A program made the position numbers and the translations under genes. A DNA stretch of 44,563 nt from Capsulimonadales bacterium. Its GTDB lineage: Bacteria; Armatimonadota; Armatimonadia; Armatimonadales; Armatimonadaceae. This document shows positions 19,904 to 33,848 of this stretch, piece after piece. Numbering within the stretch: the first letter of the stretch is position 1; every line of letters begins with the position of its first letter. The notes under the pieces are model-generated. The model ran no database searches. It saw nothing but the letters and a program-made list of their open reading frames with translations, and was not told the DNA's origin. Location of the stretch: contig JANRLW010000060.1 of NCBI GenBank assembly GCA_033762295.1, positions 1 through 44,563 of the forward strand, given 5' to 3'.

Positions 19904-20836
19904 CTACCAGACAAGCTGTCCGACCGTTTCCGGGGAGGCGGAATGCAGCTTCGGGCCGCCGCCCTCCCGGCGGAACCGACCGGGAGGGCAGCCCAGGGTC
20001 CGGGTAAAAACGCGAGTGAAATGATGAATGTCCTCGTATCCGAGCAGAGCGGCGATCTGCTTGATCGGATCGTCGGTGCGAAGCAGCAAGGCGGCGGCCC
20101 GGTCCATGCGCGCGCGGGTGATGTACAGGGCGGGCGAGACGCCGACGAATCGCAGGAACAGGCGTGCCAGCTGACGCTCGGAGACGCCGAGGGCGTCGGC
20201 GACCTCCGAAACGGACAGGGGGCGGTCCAGGTGGTCGTGAACGTAGCGAACCGCCTGCCGAATGCGGACGTCGGAAGGTGCGTTTCCGTTCCGGTCGGCG
20301 GTCGTCGCCGAATCGCATCCGGCCTGCGCGATGGCGATCAGGAGCGCGGCCATGAGCGCGCGAAGCTGCGTTTCCATGCCAAAGGCGAACTCCGGGGCGT
20401 TCGACGCGGACTCGGCGGCGAGTCGAAGGCTATGCCAGAGCGACCGGGTAGTGCCGGAGGTGTCGGCATGAACGAGAACGGAGGAGCGGGCGAAACGATC
20501 GAAAAGGGAGTCCGCGCCGCCCGCCCGCGTACCGCCGGCGGTCCATTGAAAGCAGACCCAGTACAGTTCCATCCAGGGCTGGACGGTATTGACGATCTGA
20601 TGCAGGACGCCGGGACGGGCGAAGAAGAGGGTCCCCGGAACCAGGGAATACGGCACCCCTTCGACACGATAGAGTCCCTGGCCCCAGCCGTCGACGTAGC
20701 AGACCTCGAAATAGGTATGCCGGTGCGGAACATTATCCGCCAGATGCTGGCTGTAGGCCCAGCTGCGCGCCTCGATGGTCGCCTCGCCGAGGACGATACG
20801 TCCGGTGACGCGATTCAGACGTTCGATCCAGTTCAC
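19904..20836 (-). CDS. AraC family transcriptional regulator (cupin sensor plus HTH)
   Basis: PHRHTYFEVCYV cupin; VSERQLARLF and IAALLGYEDIHHFTRVFTRTLGCPPGRFR. GTG start overlaps the upstream stop (GTGA). Confidence 0.92.
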   Translation of the reverse strand: MNWIERLNRVTGRIVLGEATIEARSWAYSQHLADNVPHRHTYFEVCYVDGWGQGLYRVEGVPYSLVPGTLFFARPGVLHQIVNTVQPWMELYWVCFQWTAGGTRAGGADSLFDRFARSSVLVHADTSGTTRSLWHSLRLAAESASNAPEFAFGMETQLRALMAALLIAIAQAGCDSATTADRNGNAPSDVRIRQAVRYVHDHLDRPLSVSEVADALGVSERQLARLFLRFVGVSPALYITRARMDRAAALLLRTDDPIKQIAALLGYEDIHHFTRVFTRTLGCPPGRFRREGGGPKLHSASPETVGQLVW

Positions 20837-21642
20837 CCGGGCGAAACCGTATCCTTTTCCGTTGGCAGCGGCGCATCGAGCCAGGCCCGAAGCGCGGCGC
20901 GAAGACGGCGACCGTCCTGCAGGGTGGCGGACAGACGGGCGGCCTGATCGCGGGCAAGAAGCCACACGTGGGCGGACGTCCCGGCCAGACGGAGGCGTAC
21001 ATGCGCCCCGGTCAGGTCGCCCGGACTGCGCCGCAGGGTGACTTCGTCCGCGAGACGGTTCCGGGGAATAAGGACCTCCTGCCGCTCGCCCGCGAAGAAC
21101 AGCGCGTCCGGAGTCAGAACCAGAAACCCGACGTCGGGAGCGGGCATTCCGGCATCGCGCGTTTCCCGTGGCGAGGCGCGCAGTTCGACGAAGAAACGCG
21201 GTCCGTCGGGAAGTTCGACCCGCGTGAGGAAGCGGCGTTGCGCCTTCCGGTTGCCGATCATGGCCAGGTGATCCAGCGCGAGGTAGAGGCAACACCAGGT
21301 CGCCACCAGCGCGGAGAGCGCCGCCACATCCAGCGACCAGCCGGCGGTCGTCGCCGGATCGGTTTGTCCGCCGAAACGCCGGACCAGGGCCGCCAGGAGG
21401 CTCCCGCCCCGGTCCCATCCGAACGCCAGCGTCGCCGCCCCGAGAAGCGTGCGAAAGGTGAAGCCGAAAATCCAGACGAGCGGCCCCCCGGCGATGAAGA
21501 GGAGCAGGGTCATCAGGTGAATTGCCGCCTGATGCCGTCCGGAAAAAATCGGCCGCGGCCCGACGGTCCGTACCCGAATCGGGGGGCCGGACAGGACGGC
21601 GGGCGGCGACGGGTCGGACGCCTTTGACACTGTGGTCGCCAT
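20833..21642 (-). CDS. Hypothetical membrane protein
   Basis: 2-3 TM helices then a soluble domain (PDVGFLVLTPDALFFAGE); translationally coupled to the araC gene. Confidence 0.65.
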   Translation of the reverse strand: MATTVSKASDPSPPAVLSGPPIRVRTVGPRPIFSGRHQAAIHLMTLLLFIAGGPLVWIFGFTFRTLLGAATLAFGWDRGGSLLAALVRRFGGQTDPATTAGWSLDVAALSALVATWCCLYLALDHLAMIGNRKAQRRFLTRVELPDGPRFFVELRASPRETRDAGMPAPDVGFLVLTPDALFFAGERQEVLIPRNRLADEVTLRRSPGDLTGAHVRLRLAGTSAHVWLLARDQAARLSATLQDGRRLRAALRAWLDAPLPTEKDTVSPG

Positions 21643-21757
21643 GCTTAGTATTCTACCAAGCCTTTCGCGGGAAGGGAAAGCGGGACCCCGGAGTGAAAAT
21701 GAGGGAAGGTTCCGAAGTACGCTTCGAACCAACGCTTTAGAAACAGGACCAAGGACA

Positions 21758-22519
21758 ATGGCGGAAAAGATCCCTGTCGGCTTACAAATGTATACGGTTC
21801 GCGACGATGCCGCGAAAGACTTTGCCGGGACCGTCAAGACGATCGCCGAGATCGGTTATGCGGGCGTGGAACTCGCGGGCTATGCGGGCCTGACGGCGGC
21901 GGAGGCAAAGAAGGTTCTCGATGACAACGGTCTGGCGGTATTCGGCGGTCACGTCGGTTACGACCAGATGACGAACAATCTCGAACAGGTCATCGACGAA
22001 TTTTCGGCGTTCGGAGCGAAGTATGTCGCCGTGCCGTGGATCGGCAACGAGTGGCGGAACTCGCTCGATGACTATCGCCGCCTGGGCGCGGCGCTCAACG
22101 AGATCGGCGCAAAGTTGACCGCCGCCGGAATCACTCTCTGCTACCATAACCACGATTTCGAGTTCAACCGCTTCGGAGGCGACGTCTACGGGTTCGACGC
22201 TCTGTTCGCGGCGGCCGAACCGGCGAATCTCCAGGTGGAGATGGATACCTTCTGGGTCAAGAAGGCGGGCGAAGACCCCGTGGCGTACGTCACGAAGTAC
22301 GCGGGCCGCCTGCCGCTGGTGCATCTGAAGGATATGACCCCGGACGGCGACTTCGCGCCGGTCGGCGAGGGAACGATCGATTACATCGCCCTCACCGGCG
22401 CGGCGGAAGCGGCCGGGACGAAATACTTCATCGTCGAACAGGATGTCTGCAGGACACACCCGCCGCTGGAGTCCGTTCGCATTTCCTTCGAAAATCTGAG
22501 AAAACTCGGTAAAGTCTGA
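21758..22519 (+). CDS. Sugar phosphate isomerase/epimerase (xylose isomerase-like TIM barrel)
   Basis: VGLQMYTVRD, GYAGVELAG, YHNHDFEF, EMDTFW, HLKD, IVEQD; AAGGA RBS. Confidence 0.93.
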   Translation: MAEKIPVGLQMYTVRDDAAKDFAGTVKTIAEIGYAGVELAGYAGLTAAEAKKVLDDNGLAVFGGHVGYDQMTNNLEQVIDEFSAFGAKYVAVPWIGNEWRNSLDDYRRLGAALNEIGAKLTAAGITLCYHNHDFEFNRFGGDVYGFDALFAAAEPANLQVEMDTFWVKKAGEDPVAYVTKYAGRLPLVHLKDMTPDGDFAPVGEGTIDYIALTGAAEAAGTKYFIVEQDVCRTHPPLESVRISFENLRKLGKV

Positions 22520-22540
22520 GTTTAAGGGTATAATGAACGG

Positions 22541-22575
22541 AAGGGCAGGAGATGACGCGATTTCCTGCCCTTTTT
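22541..22575 (+). terminator. Rho-independent terminator after the isomerase gene
   Basis: AAGGGCAGGA...TCCTGCCCTT followed by a T-run. Confidence 0.6.
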
Positions 22576-22591
22576 CGTCGCATGCGCGAAT

Positions 22592-24355
22592 ATGAGGAGG
22601 AGCGGTTCGATTATGCTGGGGACGATGCGCTTGTGTCGCCGCATGGTATCGGCGACGTTTCGACATCCGGCCGCGCGGTTCGCGGTCGCGTTGAGCGGTC
22701 TGTGTTTTCTGACGGGTCCGATCCGGGCGCAGGTCTATGTCACCTCGGACACCACCCTGGATACGGAAATCAACGATCTGGTGATTGTCGGTGAGGATAG
22801 TTTCGGTCTGCCCTTTCCGGGGGTGCAGGTCGGGGTGGTTACCGGCGCTCGACTGACGGCCGGTTTGAATGCGTTTAATGCCAGCACCATCGACATGACC
22901 GGGGGAATTCTCGATACCGTGCTGGCGCGCGACAGCGCCGTCAATATCTCCGGCGGGTCGGTCGAGTTCACCCTGGAAGGGATGAATTCGGCGATTTCCG
23001 TCTCCGGCAACGCGAACGTCGGCAATATTCTGGACGATTACGCCAGCTCCCTCACCGTGAGCGGTGGCGCTCTGGGCTATGCGGTTCTCAGGGGAACCGC
23101 AACCATCACGGGCGGAACGTTCTCCGACACGTTCGCGACGCTGGAAGCGCGGGGAAACGGCGTCGTTTCGGTCGAGGGAGGTTCGTACGCCTCCGGGTTC
23201 CTGGTCTTCGATAACGGAACGCTGACGGTTCGCGGAAGCGGACTGGCATCGTCGGTTCTGGAAACGGGCATCGCCCACTACGATGCCAGTACCACGCTGA
23301 ACTACCTGGCGAACCGCTACTCGCTGCAGGGAACGCTGGCCGACGGAACGGCGATCGATACCGAAGTGCAGCTGGCGGGCGGAGTGACCGGGAACGGTGC
23401 CGCCCTCACCTTTTCCGGCATCGCGACGGGAACGCTCGCTCCGGACCTGTATGTGACGGCCGATGGCAACGTTTCCGCCGTCCTGAACGATGTTTATGTC
23501 GGAGTCAATCAGGCCAGCACGCTCCTCACCAGCCCGACGGTAATTGTCGATGGCGCCGCCGACCTCGCTCGTCTCACGGCCTTGAACTCCAGCCAGGTGA
23601 CGGTCTTCGGCGAGGTACGGGATACGGTGTTCGCCCGGGACGGCAGCCATGTCGATATCCGCTCCGCGCTCGGGGCGGTGATTGCCGGCGTCGCGGTGTC
23701 CGACAGCGCCTCCGCCACCATCCGGAGCGGGAACGTCGATAATCTGAGCGTTCGCGATACGGCCTCGGTGGTCGTGTCGGACGGCGGTATTCTCGTCCTC
23801 TCGGCGTCCGGACTGTCCGATGCGACGGTCAACGGCGGAGTGATCGACCGGATCGTCGCCCAGGAAAACGCCCTGGTTTCCATAAACGGCGGTTTCGTTG
23901 AAGAAGCCGTCGCCTACGATACGTCGGTCATCGAGGTCCGCGGAGGATCGATCGGGGAACTGGTCGCGGTCGGCGCGACGATCACCATGACCGGCGGGAC
24001 GGTCGCCAACAGCACGCTCGTCAACCTGCGGGATACGTTCGGTCAGTACGGCCTTTTCCAGTTGCTGGGCAGCGATTTCGTGGTCGGGACGAACGGCGTC
24101 GAAGGAACGTATGACGACGGCAACCTGGTATGGTCCGGCGTCTACTGGACCCTGACCGGACGGCTGCTGAACGGCGATATCCTGGATACGCGTTACTTTG
24201 AGGCGGACGGGGAACTCGTTCGTCCCCGGTTCCGGTTCGAGGAGGGCTATCTGCTGCTCGGACGGATCTCCGCGCCGGAACCGGGCTCGCTGGCGTTGCT
24301 CGGGTTCGTCGGTCTGCCGGTTCTCACCCGGTTTCTGCGCCGGTCGCGCCGTTAG
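22592..24355 (+). CDS. PEP-CTERM surface protein with two tandem beta-helix-like modules (start codon uncertain, 22592-22643)
   Basis: Signal peptide ending IRA-Q; repeated xIxGG beta-strand units; C-terminal SAPEPGSLALLGFVGLPVLTRFLRRSRR. Confidence 0.85.
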   Translation: MRRSGSIMLGTMRLCRRMVSATFRHPAARFAVALSGLCFLTGPIRAQVYVTSDTTLDTEINDLVIVGEDSFGLPFPGVQVGVVTGARLTAGLNAFNASTIDMTGGILDTVLARDSAVNISGGSVEFTLEGMNSAISVSGNANVGNILDDYASSLTVSGGALGYAVLRGTATITGGTFSDTFATLEARGNGVVSVEGGSYASGFLVFDNGTLTVRGSGLASSVLETGIAHYDASTTLNYLANRYSLQGTLADGTAIDTEVQLAGGVTGNGAALTFSGIATGTLAPDLYVTADGNVSAVLNDVYVGVNQASTLLTSPTVIVDGAADLARLTALNSSQVTVFGEVRDTVFARDGSHVDIRSALGAVIAGVAVSDSASATIRSGNVDNLSVRDTASVVVSDGGILVLSASGLSDATVNGGVIDRIVAQENALVSINGGFVEEAVAYDTSVIEVRGGSIGELVAVGATITMTGGTVANSTLVNLRDTFGQYGLFQLLGSDFVVGTNGVEGTYDDGNLVWSGVYWTLTGRLLNGDILDTRYFEADGELVRPRFRFEEGYLLLGRISAPEPGSLALLGFVGLPVLTRFLRRSRR

Positions 24356-25433
24356 CGTGGTGGGCGGAGGGGACGACCGGGACGGACGTTCCCTCCGCCA
24401 TTTCCAGCAGGCGGCGTACTTTCCGGTTCAGGTCGAATTTGCCGCACTGTTCGCATCCGGGGACGAACCGTCCTTCGCGCAGCCTGACCCGGATCTCCTG
24501 CCAGCGTTCGCTGTGCCACAACTGAGTGAAGGAGGTTTCCTGCAGGGAACCGATTCGGAGACGAGGGAACTGATTGCAGCAGTAGAAGACGTCGGCGTTC
24601 GCGGTGATCCGGGCGTAGTAGTGTCCGGCGTAACAGCCGGTCGTCGCGATCGGAAACTCGGTCGGGGTCGCTCCCGACAGTTCCGCGATCAGGGTATCGA
24701 AATTCGCGGAGACGTCGCGCCGGTCCGCCCGTTCGATCAGGGCCGCCACCTCGGAGCGCAGAGCATCCCGACGTTCCCCGGTCAGGGCGATCGAGCGCGT
24801 ATCGTCGGTCGCGCTCATCAGTTTGAACTGAATCGATGCCCCCAGCTCCCCGGCCACGTCGATGACCTTCGGAAGCGCGTCCGCATTCACCGAACAGATG
24901 ACGAACACCAGTTTAACCTTCGTTCCACCGGACGCCATACGCGCCAGCAGGGAAACCAGTCGGGGGAAGTCGGCGGCGGTCCGGTTCGGGTGAAACGCGA
25001 CGTAACTTTCCGGGTCGCCGCAGGAAAAGTTCGCCAGTAGGGTGTCGATCCCGATCGCCGCCAGACGTTCCGGGTCACGGGCAAGCGTCAGGTTGGAGAT
25101 AAGCGTCACCTTCAACCCGGCATCTCCGGCATCGCTCAGGATCGCCTCCGCTTCGGGGTGTGCCAGCGGGTCGCCGCCGCCCGTGAAGATGGCTCGTTCG
25201 GTACCGAGGGTTTTCGCCTCCCGGAACAGATCGGCGAGGAGCGTACGGGAGAGACGTCGCCGCATCCATTCCGCGGACGGGCGTTCGGCGCGCAGAGCGG
25301 AGTACGTCCAGCAGGTGATGCAGTTCAGATTGCAGGCGTTCGTCAGGGCGATCCCGAGGCTCTCCGGCCCCAGGGTCGGCGGACGATGCTCCCGTACCTC
25401 GCGCAATCGGATCTTCGCCGGGGAGGTGACCAC
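24324..25433 (-). CDS. Radical SAM protein with C-terminal SPASM/twitch domain
   Basis: CNLNCITC, FTGGGDP, C-terminal CYAG...DVFYCC...IGSL...CEQC. Confidence 0.9.
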   Translation of the reverse strand: MVTSPAKIRLREVREHRPPTLGPESLGIALTNACNLNCITCWTYSALRAERPSAEWMRRRLSRTLLADLFREAKTLGTERAIFTGGGDPLAHPEAEAILSDAGDAGLKVTLISNLTLARDPERLAAIGIDTLLANFSCGDPESYVAFHPNRTAADFPRLVSLLARMASGGTKVKLVFVICSVNADALPKVIDVAGELGASIQFKLMSATDDTRSIALTGERRDALRSEVAALIERADRRDVSANFDTLIAELSGATPTEFPIATTGCYAGHYYARITANADVFYCCNQFPRLRIGSLQETSFTQLWHSERWQEIRVRLREGRFVPGCEQCGKFDLNRKVRRLLEMAEGTSVPVVPSAHHANGATGAETG

Positions 25434-27436: not shown

Positions 27437-28705
27437 TCAACTGTTATCCCCGAAATCGGAGAATCCGCTTACGCTCGACGTGTCCTCCGGCCGTTCGTAC
27501 ATCGGCCGTTCGTAGACGTAACCGGGGTTCATCGCGCGATACTCCTGCACCTCGGGAATGAAGTTTCCGTCGATTCGCCCGTCGGTCATGACATCCCACC
27601 AGAGGAACTCCTCCAGCGGGGAAGCGCGGTAGTAGTCATCGAAGACGTAGATGGTCGTTCCGGCGCGGTTATACCGGTTGTACAGGACATCGTAGCGCTC
27701 GATCCGTCGGCGGTCGAACCGCTTGTCAAACTGCTCCTGGGAGAAGCGTTTGTTGCGATAGCGGTACCGATCGGAGGCGTACCGTTGTTGTTCGTCTTCC
27801 AGTCGGTTGGCTCGCTGCGCCAGTTGCGAAAGGTCCTGCCGGACCTTGACCGACAGGTCGTCCAGGTATCGAATCTGGTGTTCCATACCGTCGAGCACGA
27901 CGCCCCGTCCCTTCAGTGTGTCCGCGTTCGGAAGGGCGGTCAGGTCGATTTTATCGAGAAGAGGGGCGACGGTGCGACCGACCTGTTCGTGGACCCGGGC
28001 CGGAAGCTCGTTCCGTTCCTGCAGAAGATTGTCGCGTTCCTGAAGCACCGCCTGAATCGCGTTCAATCGAGACTGCAGATCGCTGACCGAACGGCCCAGC
28101 ACCTCGACCTGTTCCTGTCGTTCGCGATAGCGATCGATCACTTCCGGGAACGCGCTGACACGGAGCGTGGCGATGATCTCATCGGCGTGTCGCCAGTCGG
28201 AGAGATACTGTCCGTTGAAGAAGCGGAGCCAGCCGCGGTGAGGGTACTGTGGGGTCCCGTACTGTCGTTCGACCAGTTCGCGACAGCGGGGCAGTCGGTT
28301 CAGCGCGTCCCAGTCGGCCCGCGCGTGTTCGAACGCCGGGCGGACCTCCTCCAGCTGCTTCTGCAGTTCGTAGACCTGTTGTTCGCGGGTGCGGTAGAGA
28401 TCGGACGTCTCGATCTGATCGAGCCGCTGATCGATCCGCGCCTGCCGTTCGGAGCCGTTGCGGAAGATGCCGTTCAGTTCGGGCAGGCCCAGACGCGCGG
28501 CCAGATCGGAGAACGCAGTAGCGGAAAGGTCGGGGAGGAGCGCCGCGCCCAGGTCCGAATAGGCGGTCATCAGGCGCGTCGCCAGGTCCCGGCGTTTCGT
28601 TTCGGTGTCGCGTGCCAGTTCCTCGAAGCGGACCATCCGCTCGCGATAGCCGTCCATCTGCCGGTTGGCTTCGCGCAAAAAGTCATCGGTGGTGTAGAAA
28701 GCCAT
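27437..28705 (-). CDS. Hypothetical coiled-coil protein
   Basis: Long E/Q/R/L heptad stretches; aromatic C-terminal motif FLWWDVMTDGRIDGNFIPEV; 1-bp gap to the GT gene. Confidence 0.75.
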   Translation of the reverse strand: MAFYTTDDFLREANRQMDGYRERMVRFEELARDTETKRRDLATRLMTAYSDLGAALLPDLSATAFSDLAARLGLPELNGIFRNGSERQARIDQRLDQIETSDLYRTREQQVYELQKQLEEVRPAFEHARADWDALNRLPRCRELVERQYGTPQYPHRGWLRFFNGQYLSDWRHADEIIATLRVSAFPEVIDRYRERQEQVEVLGRSVSDLQSRLNAIQAVLQERDNLLQERNELPARVHEQVGRTVAPLLDKIDLTALPNADTLKGRGVVLDGMEHQIRYLDDLSVKVRQDLSQLAQRANRLEDEQQRYASDRYRYRNKRFSQEQFDKRFDRRRIERYDVLYNRYNRAGTTIYVFDDYYRASPLEEFLWWDVMTDGRIDGNFIPEVQEYRAMNPGYVYERPMYERPEDTSSVSGFSDFGDNS

Positions 28706-28784
28706 GGGTTTTCCCGTTCGTTCCACCTCAGGGTACTACACCACGGGAATTTCTGTCAATTCCGGCAGCCCGTCGGACCGAATC

Positions 28785-28847
28785 CGTCAGGACATCGGGA
28801 AGATTTTAACCGCTTCCTCCTCGGACGGGAGGCGCAGACCGTCGGTG
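28785..28847 (-). repeat. R1a: degenerate copy of the 3' end of the AhpD/CMD-like gene (matches 30055-30153 with a 36-bp deletion)
   Basis: CGTCAGGACATCGGGAAG is identical to 30055-30072; the next 45 nt match 30109-30153 with 4 mismatches. Confidence 0.92.
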
Positions 28848-28876
28848 GGCATCAACGCACTGAATTCTTTAACCCG

Positions 28877-28891
28877 GAAGATTTAATCTTC
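28877..28891. promoter_or_regulatory. Palindromic operator-like site upstream of pilin-like 2
   Basis: GAAGATT-T-AATCTTC perfect inverted repeat; TTGACT (28901) and TATAAT (28920) follow. Confidence 0.4.
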
Positions 28892-28975
28892 TGATAACCT
28901 TTGACTTAATCAAGTTAGGTATAATCTCGTCGTCTACCTCCACAAAAGGTGGAGCGACTGGAACAGGAGAACCGT

Positions 28976-29947
28976 ATGCTGTTGAAATCCTCCGTTACGG
29001 TCAATGCAAACGCCTCAAAGAAGGCATTTACCCTGATCGAACTTCTCGTGGTTATTGCTATTATCGCGATCTTGGCCGCGATTCTCTTCCCGGTGTTTGC
29101 TCAGGCTCGCGAAAAGGCGCGTCAAATTACCTGTCTGTCAAACCAGAAGCAGATCGGCCTCGGAATAATGATGTATGTCCAGGACCATGACGAGCAGTAC
29201 CCGATCAACTTCCGCGACTGGTGCGTGCAGGCAGGCATGACCACAGGCGAAAATGCCAACAACTGTCGCTGGGCTTCCTGGACCCACCAGGTGTATCCCT
29301 ACATGAAGAACATCGGTATCTTCTACTGCCCGACCACCAATATTGGCGCCGGGAATACAGCGGCGGCGCTTTTGTCCCAACCCGCCAACAATGAACTGGA
29401 TGTCCCCGGCCCCCAAAACTCGGCTCCGTTGCGGGTCGTCGTCTTCGGTAGCCTCGGCGTTAACGAGTTCATCTTTAAAAACGGCAACACCGACGCTTTC
29501 GGCCGGACTGCGATCCCGCTCGCCTCAATCGGTCGCCCCGCAGAACTGGCGATTGTCGCGGACAGCACCCACCTTCTGTTTACGGATGCTCGGCGTATCA
29601 TGAGCCCGAACTGCGTCGGCCCGAACAACAACCCCGGTAACTGCTGGTGGGCAGGACCACGCAACTCACCGTCCGAAAACGACTACTTCCCGGTGCCGAA
29701 CCGACAGCGACATCAGGGCGGTTCTAACGTCACCTTTGGGGACGGTCACGCCAAGTACTTCAAAGCCGAACAGATGGGACCCGATCCCGAACGTCGCGCC
29801 CGTGCCAACGCCGGCATCCCGATCTGTACGGGCGCCTCTGCTGCACAAACCCCGCCCTGTGGGCGTCAAGACGGCGGCCGTACCTTCGCCCGCGACTTCT
29901 TTTTCAGGCTGGCCACCCATCCTGATGACGATCGCGTCAGCCAGTAA
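28976..29947 (+). CDS. Prepilin-type DUF1559 / H-X9-DG protein (pilin-like 2), Cys-rich
   Basis: [59 protein letters not shown] before ATG 28976; 8 Cys. Confidence 0.95.
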
Positions 29948-29976
29948 ATCCGAATAGTTTAGGTGCGGAACAACCC

Positions 29977-30013
29977 AAAAAGGTATGCCCTTTCCGGAGG
30001 GCATACCTTTTTT
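29977..30013. terminator. Bidirectional rho-independent terminator
   Basis: AAAAAGGTATGCCCT-ttccgg-AGGGCATACCTTTTTT between convergent genes. Confidence 0.9.
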
Positions 30014-30015
30014 GC

Positions 30016-30056
30016 CGATTCGAGAGGGAAAAGAACACTTTAGCGTATGGTTTTCG
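30016..30056 (+). repeat. R2a: 41-bp non-coding direct repeat (second copy at 32310-32350)
   Basis: CGATTCGAGAGGGAAAAGAACACTTTAGCGTATGGTTTTCG versus CGATTCGAGAGGGAAATGAACACTTTAGCGCAGGGTTTTCG, 38/41 identical. Confidence 0.92.
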
Positions 30057-31310
30057 TCAGGACATCGGGAAGGCTTCGTATGCGCCGTCCCCGTACGTCT
30101 CCCGGTAGATTTCGACCGCCTCCTCCTCGGAAGGGAGGCGCAGACCGTCGGTGAATCGGTTCATGAAGCTGAACGCACAGGTCTGCAGGACGATTTCCAG
30201 AGCGGCCCGGTCGTCGGGGAACGCCGACTTCAGCCCGGCGACATCGGTGTCGTTCACCGACTGCGGCGAGCGGGCGAGCTTGCGGGCAAACGTGACCGCC
30301 GCTTTCTCCGTCGGTGTCAGGACGGAATCGTCCTTTTTCATCGCCTGCAGTTTCGCGATATCGACATTCAGGCGACGAAGGCCCGCCACCTGGTGCAGGA
30401 CGCAGTACCGGCAACCGTTCGCCATCGAGACCGCGAAGGACACCTGTAACTGCATCTCCCGGGGAACGGTCGCGTTTTCACGGATCGATTTCCAGTAATC
30501 CCACCAGGCGGAGGCCATATCGGGTACGCGCAGCATCGCGCGTTGTGAGTTGGCGATACCGATCCCCAGCCCCTTTTTCAAATCCGGCGACGGATTGACC
30601 AGGCCGGCCGCCATTTTCATTTCGTCATCGGAGGCCAGCGAAACACGGGCGACGTTCGATAATGCGGGCGGTTTCGGTGCGGGAACGGCATCCGGCGGAA
30701 GGTGGAGCCACTCCTCCGTCGTCAGACCCGCGCCCTGGCAGAAGCGAGCGAAGTAGTGGAAAAAACAGGTCGCGATCGTCAACTCCACCAATCGGGCGTC
30801 ATTATAGACGGTCCGTGCCTCGGCGAAGCGAGCGTCATCGACCCCGTGGATATCGTACGTCAGGCGGGCGGCGTAGGCGAGCGCAATCCGCTGCCCGGCA
30901 TCGGTCGGCGTTTTGCCGGTTTCGACCGCCGCCCGCAGGCTCCGTCCGGTCGCGGTTCGGTCCAGCAGGCGGGAGAGATGCGCGGCCAGATAGCGCGATC
31001 CGGCGGACCGGGCAACGTAAAGTCCCATCGCCGCCTTGGTCTCAGGGGCGATCGTGCCCCCGTACACTACCGTTTTGAACAGGCGGGCGAACGGAGCGAC
31101 CGATTTTGGGTGGGTGGCCGCCAGAACGCGCAGGTAGCCGGGGACCCGTCCGGACGTCGGGGAATCGAGGGCGTCGCCGCCCGGAATTGCGAGGGCGGGC
31201 GTATCGAGCGGAGCCAGCGGAAAACGGGTAACGTCGACCGAGGCCGACGAGGGAAGGGGGACCAGGGTGAGAGAAACGAGCGCAAGGACAGACAGCGCGG
31301 GAAACTTCAT
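30057..31310 (-). CDS. Exported two-domain carboxymuconolactone decarboxylase/AhpD-like peroxidase-related protein
   Basis: Signal peptide; C-terminal domain VSMANGCRYCVLHQ (CxxC..H); N-terminal domain is degenerate (SAGSRYLAAH); AAAGGA RBS. Confidence 0.85.
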   Translation of the reverse strand: MKFPALSVLALVSLTLVPLPSSASVDVTRFPLAPLDTPALAIPGGDALDSPTSGRVPGYLRVLAATHPKSVAPFARLFKTVVYGGTIAPETKAAMGLYVARSAGSRYLAAHLSRLLDRTATGRSLRAAVETGKTPTDAGQRIALAYAARLTYDIHGVDDARFAEARTVYNDARLVELTIATCFFHYFARFCQGAGLTTEEWLHLPPDAVPAPKPPALSNVARVSLASDDEMKMAAGLVNPSPDLKKGLGIGIANSQRAMLRVPDMASAWWDYWKSIRENATVPREMQLQVSFAVSMANGCRYCVLHQVAGLRRLNVDIAKLQAMKKDDSVLTPTEKAAVTFARKLARSPQSVNDTDVAGLKSAFPDDRAALEIVLQTCAFSFMNRFTDGLRLPSEEEAVEIYRETYGDGAYEAFPMS

Positions 31311-31333
31311 AGCGATTTCCTTTAACGTGTAGA

Positions 31334-31362
31334 GGGGACAGGGACGGTGGTTCCCTGTCCCC
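31334..31362. repeat. 11-bp stem-loop between pilin-like 3 and the AhpD-like gene
   Basis: GGGGACAGGGA-cggtggt-TCCCTGTCCCC; shares the GGGGACA/TGTCCCC core with the hairpin at 2659. Confidence 0.55.
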
Positions 31363-31379
31363 GGAACATCGGACCCGGT

Positions 31380-32210
31380 TCAGAAGGCGGCCCGATATTC
31401 CAGCGTGTTCAGCGTGTTGGAGTCGGCATCCGAGTCGGCGAAGTGGGTCGGCAAACCGGGGTTCAACTCCGGCGTCGCGCCGAACTGGACGAATCGGATG
31501 GAACTGCGCCGCTGGAACTTGGCGTGTCCGTCGCAGAAAAGCAGGTTCGCCCCGCCATTGTGGAGATAGTCGTAATACTGGTGGGTGAAATTGACCCAGA
31601 GTCCTGTGCTTTTCCGCTGACGGGGCTTCTCCTGCGCGACGCGGTTGTAGTTGCGCGTTTCGTGCAGGAAGATGGTATCGGCGGGAGCGGGGATTGCAGC
31701 CAGCGACTTGCTCGCCGCGATGCCGTTCAGCAGGAGGTTACCGTTGCCGGCATTCGCGACACCCGTCACCTCGCAGGTGTTCGCCGTAGGGGTGCAGGGA
31801 CCGTCGGACGAACGGGGCTTGGTCTCGGGGCATCGGAAGATACCAAGGTTCTTCGTGTACGGCTGGACGTCACGCGCCCAGATGCGGTAGGTGCCGACGT
31901 TGTTCACATCGAACGGCTGCATCCACCCCATCGGTTCGGAGAGGCCCGCGCTATGGGCGGTGGTCGCATCCGGCCATCGCGGATCGGAAACGGTATCGAG
32001 CGTCGTGTTGCCCGGCAGGATCTCATCGTAATCCTGGGCGTACATCAGGAAGGCAAGGCCCACCTGTTTCTCGTTGGAGAGGCAGGAGGCTTGCCGGGCT
32101 TTGGCGCGTGCCTGGGCGAAGACCGGGAAAAGAATCGCGGCTAGAATCGCTATAATGGCGATAACTACCAGTAGCTCGATCAGAGTAAAAGCGGAACGAC
32201 GAGGGATCAT
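31380..32210 (-). CDS. Prepilin-type DUF1559 / H-X9-DG protein (pilin-like 3)
   Basis: [60 protein letters not shown]. Confidence 0.95.
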
Positions 32211-32309
32211 GGCGGTGTTTCCTTCGATGGAATTTCGTTAACGGCCCCATTTTAGGTCGTCACGGAACCTGCGGCAATCGACGGCGGGGGCAATTCGGGC
32301 AGGTTTCAG

Positions 32310-32350
32310 CGATTCGAGAGGGAAATGAACACTTTAGCGCAGGGTTTTCG
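32310..32350 (+). repeat. R2b: second copy of the 41-bp repeat
   Basis: 38/41 identity to 30016-30056, same orientation. Confidence 0.92.
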
Positions 32351-32454
32351 ACGCCTGAGGGCAGGTTTCGGAAGCGGTGGAAACGAGCAGGAACCTGTTC
32401 CCTGCCGCGTCTCGTCTTCGTTACGGCCCCTGCCAAAAAGGTATTTACTGTCTC

Positions 32455-33360
32455 ATGATCGTCACCGGAAAAGTGTCGCTACTCGCCACCGCGATCGATA
32501 TGCGCTGGCGTCTTCTGACCATCGGGTTGGTCGCCGTCGTCGTCTCGGTGGCGTATGAATGGCTGAACAAAACGGAGATTTCGATCCAGATCACTCCAAT
32601 CACCGCTCTCGGCGTCGCGATCGGTCTCTTCCTCGGTTTTCGTTGCACCGTCGTCTGGAACCGCTACTGGGAGGCGCGAACGCTCTGGGGACGGCTGATC
32701 AATGCGTCGCGAACCCTGGCCCGCCAGCTGGCGACGCTCCTTCAAAGCGACGATCCGACCGTTTCCGCCGATTTTTACCGGGAGATGCTCCGCTGGCATC
32801 AGGCCTATGTCCATGCGTTTCGAGCGCATTTGCGGGACGACGATCCGCTGAAGGAGGCGAGCCCCTATTTTCCGGAGGCGATGACCCGGGAGATGAAGAC
32901 CGCCGTCAACCTGCCGGCGGCGATCCTGCATCGGATGGGAGAGCGTCTGCACGATGCCTGGGGTAAGGGAATGCTGACGGAGTTTCGGCTGCTGCCGCTG
33001 GACGAGACGATGACCGAGATTACGGAGATTCAGGGCGGGTGTGAACGAATCAAGAATACACCGATCCCGCCCGCGTTTACCTATGTCTCGCACCGTATGA
33101 TGCAGGCGTACTGCTGTCTGATCCCCTTCGGTCTGGTTTCGGATCTGCGCTGGTTTACGCCGGCGGTCACTCTGCTCATCTCTTTCGCCTTTCTGACACT
33201 CGACCAGATCAGCGACCTGATCGAGCAGCCGTTTTCGACCGCCGATAACGACCTGCCTCTGGATGCGATGACCCGGACGATCGATATCGACCTGCTGCAG
33301 CGGATGGGTTCGGAAAAAGTGCCGCCGCCCATGGAACCTGTGGACGGCGTGCTGCTGTAA
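32455..33360 (+). CDS. Bestrophin family (YneE-like) anion channel
   Basis: LFLGFR...RYWEARTLWGRLINASR, QGGCERIKNTPIP, IEQPF...NDLPLDAM. Confidence 0.92.
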   Translation: MIVTGKVSLLATAIDMRWRLLTIGLVAVVVSVAYEWLNKTEISIQITPITALGVAIGLFLGFRCTVVWNRYWEARTLWGRLINASRTLARQLATLLQSDDPTVSADFYREMLRWHQAYVHAFRAHLRDDDPLKEASPYFPEAMTREMKTAVNLPAAILHRMGERLHDAWGKGMLTEFRLLPLDETMTEITEIQGGCERIKNTPIPPAFTYVSHRMMQAYCCLIPFGLVSDLRWFTPAVTLLISFAFLTLDQISDLIEQPFSTADNDLPLDAMTRTIDIDLLQRMGSEKVPPPMEPVDGVLL

Positions 33361-33371
33361 GGAACCGGGTA

Positions 33372-33848
33372 GTGGCGACGCTCCTTCTGATCTGCGGACT
33401 GCCCGGCGCGGGAAAAACGACCCTCGCCCGTCGTCTCGAACGGGAACGTCCGGCCTTGCGCCTCTGCCCCGACGAATGGATCCTCGCGATTCTGCGCGAC
33501 CCGAACGATGTGACCGAGCGGGATCGTCTGCGCTCCCCGGTAGAAGCGGTGCAGTGGGAACTGGCGAAGAACGCTCTGATGCTCGGTAACGACGTCATCC
33601 TGGAATGGGGTTTCTGGTCGCGGGCGGAGCGGCGGCAGTTTCGCGACGAGGCCGTGGCGATCGGCGCGAAAACCGAACTGTACTATCTCGAGGTCGAGAA
33701 AGCCGAACTGTGGCGTCGACTGACCGACCGGAACGCACGACGGCCTCCCGGCACCTTTCCGGTGGCCGAGGCGGAGTTCGAACTCTGGCACTCCTGGTTC
33801 GAACCGCCGGGGAACGAGGAACAGCCCGTACGTATCGCGAACCGATAA
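33372..33848 (+). CDS. AAA_33-type P-loop kinase/ATP-binding protein
   Basis: CGLPGAGKTT Walker A, CPDEW, VILEWGFWSRAER. Confidence 0.88.
   Translation: MATLLLICGLPGAGKTTLARRLERERPALRLCPDEWILAILRDPNDVTERDRLRSPVEAVQWELAKNALMLGNDVILEWGFWSRAERRQFRDEAVAIGAKTELYYLEVEKAELWRRLTDRNARRPPGTFPVAEAEFELWHSWFEPPGNEEQPVRIANR

What the first reader, a model, noticed from the sequence alone, without database searches (positions are those of the whole stretch)
28785..32350. Two head-to-tail units with shared ends but different pilin-like cargo: candidate DUF1559 cassette array or duplicate-and-swap locus
Seen: two repeat pairs are interleaved as R1a(28785-28847)-[pilin 2, +]-terminator-R2a(30016-30056)/R1b(30055-30153)-[AhpD-like, pilin 3, -]-R2b(32310-32350). 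R2a and R1b abut and overlap by the dinucleotide CG. Unit 1 (28785-30056) and unit 2 (30055-32350) therefore both start CGTCAGGACATCGGGAAG and end GGTTTTCG. Divergence is similar in the two pairs (4/63 aligned nt and 3/41), which fits a single event. The interiors are unrelated except that each holds a DUF1559 prepilin-like gene, in opposite orientations. Pilin 2 has its own promoter-like AT-rich leader and a bidirectional terminator. No integrase or transposase lies in the window. Inference: either a tandem duplication whose left copy was refilled by a different pilin gene, or a non-autonomous cassette with defined ends that stacks in arrays. Either would be a mechanism for expanding and varying these surface proteins.
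Basis: partly seen in the sequence, partly recalled or inferred. Interest (0 to 1): 0.8.

Follow-up and report, generated by a model that had tools for sequence, protein, structure and literature searches.

The report
Tandem-duplication scar holding a pilin gene
The interleaved repeats are real, but they look like the worn-down ends of an old back-to-back duplication of a conserved two-gene operon, with a different pilin-like gene now in the gutted copy; this is an ordinary genome scar, not a mobile cassette system.

Summary
R1a/R1b and R2a/R2b exist at the stated coordinates, abut with a shared CG, and score far above chance.

R1 is not a cassette end. It is the last 32 codons plus stop of a secreted CMD/AhpD-like gene. 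R1a is a dead relic of that gene end with a secondary 12-codon deletion. R2b lies in the native regulatory region of pilin 3.

Unit 2's "cargo", pilin 3 plus the CMD gene, is a conserved gene pair in 10 of 10 orthologous loci from other genera.

R1 and R2 occur nowhere else: not in this 5.16-Mb genome, not in 31 other family genomes, not in the species-representative genome collection. The junction does not fold like a recombination site. No recombinase lies on the contig.

Best reading, about 0.72: a 2294-nt microhomology (CG) tandem duplication of the pilin 3-CMD operon. The left copy was later gutted and now holds an unrelated DUF1559 gene.

No reads and no strain-level relatives were available. 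The pre-duplication state and the assembly are therefore inferred, not shown. Interest is low.

The parts
27437..28726 (-). Coiled-coil protein gene (429 aa, no Pfam family). It is the left neighbour; its start lies 58 nt from R1a (79 nt if the ATG codon is the true start).
   Evidence: ORF; no Pfam hit; orthologues in 10 of 40 relatives, always next to the glycosyltransferase gene and never next to the CMD or pilin genes within 1.5 kb
28785..28847 (-). R1a: dead relic of the 3' end of a second CMD gene copy. It reads TDGLRLPSEEEAVKIFPMS-stop on the minus strand, with a secondary in-frame 36-nt deletion.
   Evidence: all 10 orthologues keep the long C-terminus, so the long form is ancestral
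28848..28975 (+). Low-G+C (43%) leader of pilin 2, with no homology to unit 2. It is the left end of the replacing segment.
   Evidence: no promoter called by the scanner
28976..29947 (+). Pilin 2: a DUF1559 / H-X9-DG prepilin-type protein (323 aa). It is 33% identical to pilin 3.
   Evidence: G+C 58.1% and GC3 0.70, the 4th to 6th percentile of 109 prepilin-like genes in this genome
29977..30012 (.). Bidirectional terminator-like hairpin with a 16-bp stem and flanking A and T runs.
30016..30056 (-). R2a: relic copy of part of the pilin 3 upstream region. Its CCCTGCGC motif has decayed to CCATACGC.
30055..30056 (.). CG join point of the duplication. It is shared by the end of R2a and the start of R1b. 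The same CG also stands at 28785-28786 and 32349-32350.
   Evidence: read directly from the sequence
30055..30153 (-). R1b: the native copy, made of the stop codon and last 32 codons of the intact CMD gene.
30057..31310 (-). CMD/AhpD-like protein gene (417 aa) with a signal-peptide-like N-terminus and a CRYC motif.
   Evidence: (PF02627, 38.7 bits against a cut-off of 23); orthologues at 44-55% identity
31380..32210 (-). Pilin 3: a DUF1559 / H-X9-DG prepilin-type protein (276 aa). It is the conserved partner of the CMD gene.
   Evidence: (64-79% identity to orthologues in other genera)
32249..32277 (-). The only sigma-70-like promoter match in the region (TTGCCG-17-TAAAAT), upstream of pilin 3.
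   Evidence: a consensus match only
32310..32350 (-). R2b: the native copy, inside the pilin 3 regulatory region. It holds the second of two CCTGC-type motifs spaced 22 nt apart.
32297..32369 (-). Two exact 11-nt GAAACCTGCCC motifs (32297-32307 and 32359-32369) bracketing R2b. The outer one lies beyond the duplicated segment and continues a conserved motif pair.
   Evidence: a 19-of-20 match of 32351-32370 upstream of the pilin 3 orthologue in L004
32377..33360 (+). Bestrophin-family channel gene, the right neighbour, divergent from pilin 3.
   Evidence: PF25539, E 3e-79

Best explanation
The locus is the relic of a one-off tandem duplication. The ancestor had, on the minus strand, pilin 3, then the CMD/AhpD-like gene, then about 60 nt of spacer, then the coiled-coil gene. 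A 2294-nt segment was duplicated head to tail by illegitimate, microhomology-type joining at a CG present at both ends. That segment ran from just past the CMD stop codon to about 140 nt upstream of the pilin 3 start. The join created the new junction R2a|R1b. The left copy later lost about 2.16 kb of interior: most of its CMD gene, all of its pilin 3 and the proximal promoter. A 1168-nt segment now lies there instead, carrying an unrelated DUF1559 gene (pilin 2) with its own leader and a bidirectional terminator. What survives of the left copy is 63 nt of the CMD 3' end (R1a, after a further 36-nt deletion) and 41 nt of the distal pilin 3 upstream region (R2a). Both are drifting. Shown: the repeats, their nature, their polarity and their uniqueness. 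Inferred: that the whole 2.3 kb was once duplicated, the order of events, and where pilin 2 came from. The structure does nothing as a device. Its likely effects are that a terminator now separates the CMD gene from the coiled-coil gene, and that the remaining 41- to 63-nt repeats are too short and too diverged for the duplication to collapse readily.
For: (1) R1b is the stop codon plus last 32 codons of an intact 417-aa CMD gene. R1a translates in the same frame to the same C-terminus minus 12 residues. All 10 orthologues keep those residues, so R1a is the derived, decayed copy. It keeps the ancestral K where R1b has E. (2) R2b is continuous with its right flank as part of a conserved regulatory pattern. 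CCTGC-type motifs stand 22 nt apart at -155 and -133 from the pilin 3 start, with a third at -93. CCCTG stands at -59 and at -81 or -92 upstream of the pilin 3 orthologues in 7 of 10 loci, covering 3 genera. The first motif lies outside the repeat, so R2b|right flank is the native join and R2a|R1b is the novel one. Two of the three R2a/R2b differences destroy the motif in R2a. (3) R1a and R1b start at the same base, and R2a ends exactly there. CG stands at both ancestral ends and once at the junction. One duplication explains both repeat pairs. (4) Pilin 3 and the CMD gene are adjacent in 10 of 10 orthologous loci from relatives' genomes and in 1 of 5 metagenome loci. Unit 2 is therefore old resident DNA. 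(5) R1, R2 and the junction have no other copy in the 5.16-Mb genome. R2 is not found in 31 other family genomes at up to 3 mismatches. Its core has 0 hits in the species-representative collection. (6) The junction and the repeat ends do not fold better than shuffles, with z between -0.7 and +1.3. No recombinase was found. (7) Pilin 2 is compositionally low for its family. Its best in-genome paralogue is 42% identical, against 57% in another genus. Its reciprocal-best homologue in G003 sits at a different, lineage-specific site. This fits secondary arrival. (8) Head-to-tail DUF1559 arrays elsewhere in the genome, for example four genes 1.4-1.6 kb apart on C79, show that tandem duplication is active in this genome. 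Joining at short microhomology border sequences to form a duplication join point is described in passages of PMC11111574.
Against: No trace of the CMD gene or pilin 3 survives inside unit 1. Duplication of the full 2.3 kb is therefore inferred from its two ends only. A 2-nt microhomology arises by chance about once in 16 or more often. No genome closer than about 55% protein identity is held, so neither the pre-duplication state nor an intact two-copy state has been seen. No sequencing run could be listed, so the contig has not been checked against reads. How the interior was replaced has no direct evidence. Three of the four R1 differences are synonymous third-position changes. That hints the left copy stayed functional for a while, but chance gives this with p about 0.11, so it is not informative.
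Confidence: 0.72

Rival explanations
1. Two strain alleles were joined in vivo. One allele had already swapped the operon for pilin 2 between R1 and R2, and the other kept the operon. DNA of the first entered a cell of the second, circularised and integrated by a single crossover in R1 or R2. This gave the same tandem topology.
For: The topology is identical to the one observed. The roughly 7% divergence of the repeat pairs and the ancestral K in R1a could reflect allelic divergence rather than in-place divergence. Pilin 2 is compositionally atypical.
Against: It needs the same replacement event plus an extra circularisation exactly at the ends of homology plus an integration. No second allele or strain is known: all three proteins are singletons at 90% identity in the protein collection.
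Confidence: 0.1
2. Pilin 2 was already between the coiled-coil gene and the CMD gene. R1a and R2a are short templated patches copied from nearby during one complex replication-based repair event (template switching), with no full-length duplication.
For: No relic of the CMD gene or pilin 3 lies inside unit 1. The patches are short, 63 and 41 nt.
Against: It does not explain three things: why the two patches are exactly the two ends of one contiguous 2294-nt segment, why R2a ends precisely where R1b begins, or why R1a starts at the same base as R1b. Pilin-2-type genes have no conserved position in relatives.
Confidence: 0.07
3. Non-autonomous mobile cassettes: R1...R2 units have defined ends, recombine through an R2|R1 circle junction, and stack in arrays carrying DUF1559 genes.
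For: Both units share ends and abut with a 2-nt overlap. Each holds a DUF1559 gene. Pilin-2-type genes sit at lineage-specific sites in different genera.
Against: One 'end' is the coding 3' end of a conserved gene and the other is part of its operon's regulatory region. There are no further copies in the genome, the family or the species-representative collection. The junction has no hairpin or palindrome and no recombinase is present. Unit 2 is a vertically conserved operon. The pilin-2 homologue inserted in G003 has no comparable flanking repeats.
Confidence: 0.04
4. Assembly artefact: two co-existing strain alleles were concatenated by the assembler of this 132-contig draft genome.
For: The genome is a draft, 94.5% complete with 2.2% contamination. 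No reads were available for checking.
Against: The alleles would overlap by only 2 nt at R2a|R1b. A k-mer or overlap assembler cannot join them there without reads that span the junction (inference). The contig holds no N run at that point. The repeat copies are diverged, not collapsed.
Confidence: 0.05

Closest known systems
Microhomology-mediated (illegitimate) tandem duplication in bacterial chromosomes, and the decay of one copy
   Same: The copies lie head to tail. The novel join point links the right end of the segment to its left end. A short microhomology (CG) stands at both ancestral ends and once at the join. One copy is degraded while the other stays intact. Join points formed at short microhomology border sequences appear in passages of PMC11111574. 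Microhomology tandem duplication as a general mechanism appears in the listings and abstracts of PMC13167724 and of two bioRxiv preprints.
   Different: Only 63 and 41 nt of the second copy survive. Its interior has been replaced by an unrelated gene of the same superfamily in the opposite orientation. The duplication is old, with about 7% divergence of the relics, unlike the fresh, unstable duplications of laboratory studies.
Integron gene-cassette arrays
   Same: Units lie in series, with the end of one abutting the start of the next. Each unit holds one or two genes.
   Different: There is no attC-like foldable site and no integrase. One unit has its own leader and terminator, and its gene faces the other way. 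The 'ends' are a coding sequence and a promoter fragment. No other copies exist.
Private repeats beside DUF1559 genes noted earlier in this scan on other genomes (e1-361031, e1-1410876, e1-710457)
   Same: These are two-copy repeats made of gene fragments or local duplications next to DUF1559 genes. The follow-up agents judged them ordinary relics (AI notes, not checked here).
   Different: Here two repeat pairs interleave and define a duplication join point. The repeats derive from the neighbouring CMD gene and the pilin promoter region, not from the pilin gene itself.

Membership tests
Tandem duplication relic (microhomology join) | Direct repeats arranged so that the right end of a segment is joined to its own left end | tested here: met
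   R2a ends at 30056 and R1b starts at 30055. R1a and R1b start at the same base, and R2a and R2b end at the same base.
Tandem duplication relic (microhomology join) | Microhomology present at both ancestral ends and once at the join | tested here: met
   CG stands at 28785-28786, 32349-32350 and 30055-30056. At only 2 nt this is weak on its own.
Tandem duplication relic (microhomology join) | One member of each repeat pair sits in its native context | tested here: met
   R1b lies in the intact gene and the long C-terminus is ancestral. R2b is continuous with a conserved motif pair that extends beyond the repeat.
Tandem duplication relic (microhomology join) | The two copies share their interior | tested here: not met
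   The interiors are unrelated apart from the family-wide prepilin N-terminus. Secondary replacement has to be assumed.
Integron cassette array | attC-type imperfect palindrome at cassette borders | tested here: not met
   DNA folds of the junction and ends gave z +1.10, +1.33, -0.68, -0.12 and +0.71. No inverted repeat lies there.
Integron cassette array | Adjacent integron integrase | tested here: not met
   No integrase family was found among the 35 ORFs of the whole contig scanned against Pfam.
Non-autonomous transposable element (MITE or IS-derived) | Multiple copies of the ends in the genome | tested here: not met
   Only the two local copies of each exist in the 5.16-Mb genome. There are none in 31 other family genomes and 0 core hits in genome contigs.
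Non-autonomous transposable element (MITE or IS-derived) | Terminal inverted repeats and a target-site duplication | tested here: not met
   No inverted repeat joins the unit ends. The flanks of the units show no duplication beyond the CG.
DUF1559 / H-X9-DG prepilin-type proteins (pilin 2, pilin 3) | N-terminal methylation motif, the DUF1559 domain and the H-X9-DG C-terminal motif | tested here: met
   PF07963 and PF07596 score above their cut-offs for both proteins. TIGR04294 scores 25.7 and 27.8 bits against a cut-off of 19.
Carboxymuconolactone decarboxylase / AhpD-like family (the 417-aa protein) | CMD domain above the Pfam threshold, and a CxxC motif | tested here: met
   PF02627 scores 38.7 bits against a cut-off of 23, at residues 263-342. 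CRYC is visible in the translation. TIGR01926 falls below its cut-off at 67.2 against 81.8. Enzyme activity was not tested.

The most novel reading that the evidence does not exclude
The R1...R2 units could be members of a lineage-private, recombinase-independent cassette mechanism. Excised circles of a tandem unit, joined R2|R1 at the CG, would re-integrate by homology and pick up single DUF1559 genes that travel with their own leader and terminator. This would explain why pilin-2-type genes sit at different, lineage-specific sites in different genera. Nothing tested supports it. With no strain-level relatives and no reads, it is not strictly excluded.
Probability: 0.04. Interest if true: 0.65.

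Novelty: already known. Interest (0 to 1): 0.14.

Why it matters
It matters little on its own. It is a clean, base-level example of how a tandem duplication decays and of how a DUF1559 gene came to lie in the wreck of a duplicate. It removes a candidate mobile-cassette system from the list. The by-products are more useful. A DUF1559 protein unusually well conserved across genera (64-79% identity) is always paired with a secreted AhpD-like thiol protein and sits behind a conserved repeated promoter motif. That gives a concrete, testable partner and regulator site for one member of a very large uncharacterised family.

Tried and rejected
Sequencing runs holding 28600-32500: none was listed. No read-level check of the junction, empty sites or circles was therefore possible, and read laying was not used.

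Metagenome contigs searched with the CMD protein: 5 loci, all at 55% identity or less, so no strain-level comparison.

Exact look-up of the CMD protein, pilin 2 and pilin 3: each is a singleton cluster seen on one contig.

R2 as a conserved element upstream of pilin 3 orthologues or downstream of CMD orthologues: no alignment beyond short words.

Rfam over 28000-33000: only one sub-threshold chance hit, inside the CMD gene.

attC-like or hairpin structure at the junction and ends: none.

Hidden homology beyond the repeat borders: none.

DNA similarity of the pilin 2 leader or tail to the flanks of its homologues in nine relatives' loci, or to the C90 site: none.

Flanking repeats around the pilin-2 homologue inserted in G003: only G+C-rich low-complexity matches.

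Inversion switch between the inverted N-terminal coding stretches of pilin 2 and pilin 3: rejected. The 74% identity is the family-wide level shared with dozens of paralogues, and no recombinase is present.

R1a as a real 21-codon gene: rejected by inspection. It has no ribosome-binding sequence, and it is simply the tail of the CMD frame.

One search failed on a parameter limit and was repeated within the limit. One search failed on a wrong frame and was repeated without that item.
Full report
OBSERVATION. The window is one whole contig (C60, 44563 nt) of a 132-contig draft genome of 5.16 Mb. R1a (28785-28847) matches R1b (30055-30153): 18 nt are exact, R1a then lacks 36 nt, and the last 45 nt differ at 4 positions. 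R2a (30016-30056) matches R2b (32310-32350) at 38 of 41 positions. R2a and R1b overlap by CG. In 100 dinucleotide-preserving shuffles of 27500-33500 the best direct self-hit averaged 25.2 bits and never exceeded 34.2. The real sequence gives 61.9, 58.0 and 36.2 bits. Homology stops sharply at all four borders.

WHAT THE REPEATS ARE. R1b is the stop codon and last 32 codons of a 417-aa minus-strand gene (30057-31310). That gene carries a CMD/AhpD-like domain (PF02627, above cut-off), a signal-peptide-like N-terminus and a CRYC motif. Read on the minus strand, R1a gives TDGLRLPSEEEAVKIFPMS-stop. This is the same C-terminus with 12 residues missing, preceded by unrelated sequence and a stop. All 10 orthologues from relatives keep the missing stretch (...AVKxYRETYG...). 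The long form is therefore ancestral, and R1a is a decayed relic of a second copy of this gene's end. R1a keeps the K found in most orthologues, where the living gene now has E.

R2b lies 100-140 nt upstream of the pilin 3 start, among repeated CCTGC-type motifs. Two exact GAAACCTGCCC copies bracket it (32297, 32359), and a CCCTGCGC lies inside it. That inner motif stands 22 nt from the outer motif, which lies beyond the repeat. CCCTG stands at -59 and at -81 or -92 upstream of the pilin 3 orthologues in 7 of 10 loci, covering three genera. The 20 nt just outside R2b match the upstream region of the L004 orthologue at 19 of 20 positions. So R2b and its right flank form native, continuous regulatory DNA. 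R2a is the displaced copy, and two of its three differences destroy the motif.

WHAT THE UNITS HOLD. Pilin 2 (28976-29947, +) and pilin 3 (31380-32210, -) are both DUF1559 / H-X9-DG prepilin-type proteins. They are only 33% identical to each other. Pilin 3 and the CMD gene are neighbours in 10 of 10 orthologous loci from other genera of the family. They are co-directional in six loci and divergent in the four loci of genus g6. Pilin 3 is 64-79% identical to its orthologues and the CMD protein 44-50%. One of five metagenome loci shows the same pair. The other four hold the CMD gene without a DUF1559 neighbour in the fetched flanks. Unit 2 is thus an old resident operon, not cargo.

Pilin 2 is different. 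Its G+C (58.1%) and GC3 (0.70) fall at the 4th to 6th percentile of 109 prepilin-like genes in this genome. Its best in-genome paralogue is 42% identical, against 57% in genus g4. Its reciprocal-best homologue in G003 lies, together with an unknown 358-aa ORF, between two conserved genes A and B. Those two genes are adjacent in this genome, on contig C90 with a gap of about 110 nt and no relic between them. Of 15 stretches fetched upstream of B in other relatives, none held a pilin-2-like gene and 7 held A. Pilin-2-type genes therefore occupy lineage-specific sites.

The hairpin after pilin 2 (29977-30012) has a 16-bp stem with A and T runs on its two sides. It folds well on both strands, with z -2.7 and -3.9. 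The simple scanner called neither the hairpin nor any promoter for pilin 2.

IS IT A CASSETTE SYSTEM? R1, R2 and the junction have no other copy in the genome. R2 with up to 3 mismatches was found in 1 of 32 family genomes, and that one is this genome. Its 24-nt core has 0 exact hits in the species-representative genome collection. The junction and the ends do not fold better than shuffled sequence. Rfam gives nothing. None of the 35 ORFs scanned across the contig matches an integrase, transposase or other recombinase family. The insertion carrying the pilin-2 homologue in G003 has no comparable flanking repeats. Every testable prediction of the cassette reading failed.

MOST LIKELY HISTORY. 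R1a and R1b begin at the same base. R2a and R2b end at the same base. R2a ends where R1b begins. CG stands at both outer ends (28785-28786 and 32349-32350) and once at the junction. This is the geometry of a tandem duplication of a 2294-nt segment joined at a 2-nt microhomology. Join points at short microhomology border sequences are described for bacterial tandem duplications in passages of PMC11111574. I saw only listings and abstracts of the other papers.

The native member of each pair lies in unit 2, so unit 1 is the derived copy. About 2.16 kb of its interior is gone and 1168 nt of unrelated DNA with pilin 2 lies in its place. A later 36-nt deletion trimmed R1a. Before these events the CMD stop lay 58-79 nt from the coiled-coil gene on the same strand. 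The terminator now stands between them.

Steps shown: the identity, polarity, uniqueness and geometry of the repeats. Steps inferred: that the whole segment was once present twice, the order of events, and the route by which pilin 2 arrived. Head-to-tail DUF1559 arrays elsewhere in the genome, for example four genes 1.4-1.6 kb apart on C79, show that tandem duplication does shape this family. In this event, however, the duplicated pilin was lost, so the event did not expand the family.

WHAT REMAINS OPEN. No sequencing run could be listed. No relative closer than about 55% protein identity was found in genomes or metagenomes. All three proteins are singletons at 90% identity in the large protein collection. 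The ancestral single-copy state, an intact two-copy state, population variation and the assembly itself are all unverified.

A concatenation artefact is unlikely on logic alone. The two putative alleles would overlap by only 2 nt at the junction. Rivals that give the same topology cannot be excluded. These are integration of a circularised allele from a sister strain, and a complex template-switch event with pilin 2 already in place. Each needs more coincidences than a single duplication.

COMPARISON AND VERDICT. The closest known thing is an ordinary microhomology tandem duplication followed by decay of one copy. It differs from laboratory cases only in its age (about 7% divergence of the relics) and in the replaced interior. 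It is not an integron-like array, a MITE or an IS relic: the defining features of each were tested and not met. Earlier notes of this scan on other genomes reached similar 'ordinary relic' verdicts for private repeats beside DUF1559 genes. I did not check those notes and they carry no weight here. The kind of event is already known, and interest is low.

Noticed in passing
window 30057-32210; loci L002-L011, L033: Pilin 3 and the secreted CMD/AhpD-like protein form a conserved gene pair in 10 of 10 orthologous genome loci and 1 of 5 metagenome loci. Pilin 3 is 64-79% identical across genera, far more conserved than typical DUF1559 paralogues. This suggests a specific, fixed function with a thiol-redox partner.
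   Followed up: partly
window 32297-32369; upstream of pilin 3 orthologues in L004-L008, L010, L011: A repeated CCCTG(C)C motif stands at fixed offsets before the start codon (-59 and -81 or -92) in three genera. It occurs three times in the window, spaced 22 and 40 nt apart. It looks like a binding site for an unidentified regulator. The exact 11-mer GAAACCTGCCC occurs 8 times in the genome against about 2.5 expected.
   Followed up: partly
L003-L007, directly after the CMD gene: A conserved ORF of about 60 aa made of NQ-heptad repeats (xILxNQx) follows the CMD gene in genera g10 and g7. tblastn finds no such ORF in this window's genome.
   Followed up: partly
L008-L011 (genus g6): The pilin 3 orthologue is transcribed divergently from the CMD gene here, not co-directionally. 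The pilin gene was inverted within the pair in one genus.
   Followed up: no
L040 6809-8790 (G003) against G000 contig C90 53929-54034: The closest homologue of pilin 2, together with an unknown 358-aa ORF, is a lineage-specific insertion between two conserved genes. Those two genes are adjacent in this genome, and 7 of 15 stretches fetched from other relatives held both. No flanking repeats mark the insertion.
   Followed up: yes
G000 contig C79 about 20144-24765: Four DUF1559 genes lie head to tail at 1.4-1.6 kb spacing. Several other contigs also hold clustered paralogues. Tandem arrays are common in this genome, which holds about 109 prepilin-like genes.
   Followed up: no
window 28877-28891: A near-palindrome, GAAGATTTAATCTTC, lies in the low-G+C leader of pilin 2 and could be an operator.
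   Followed up: no
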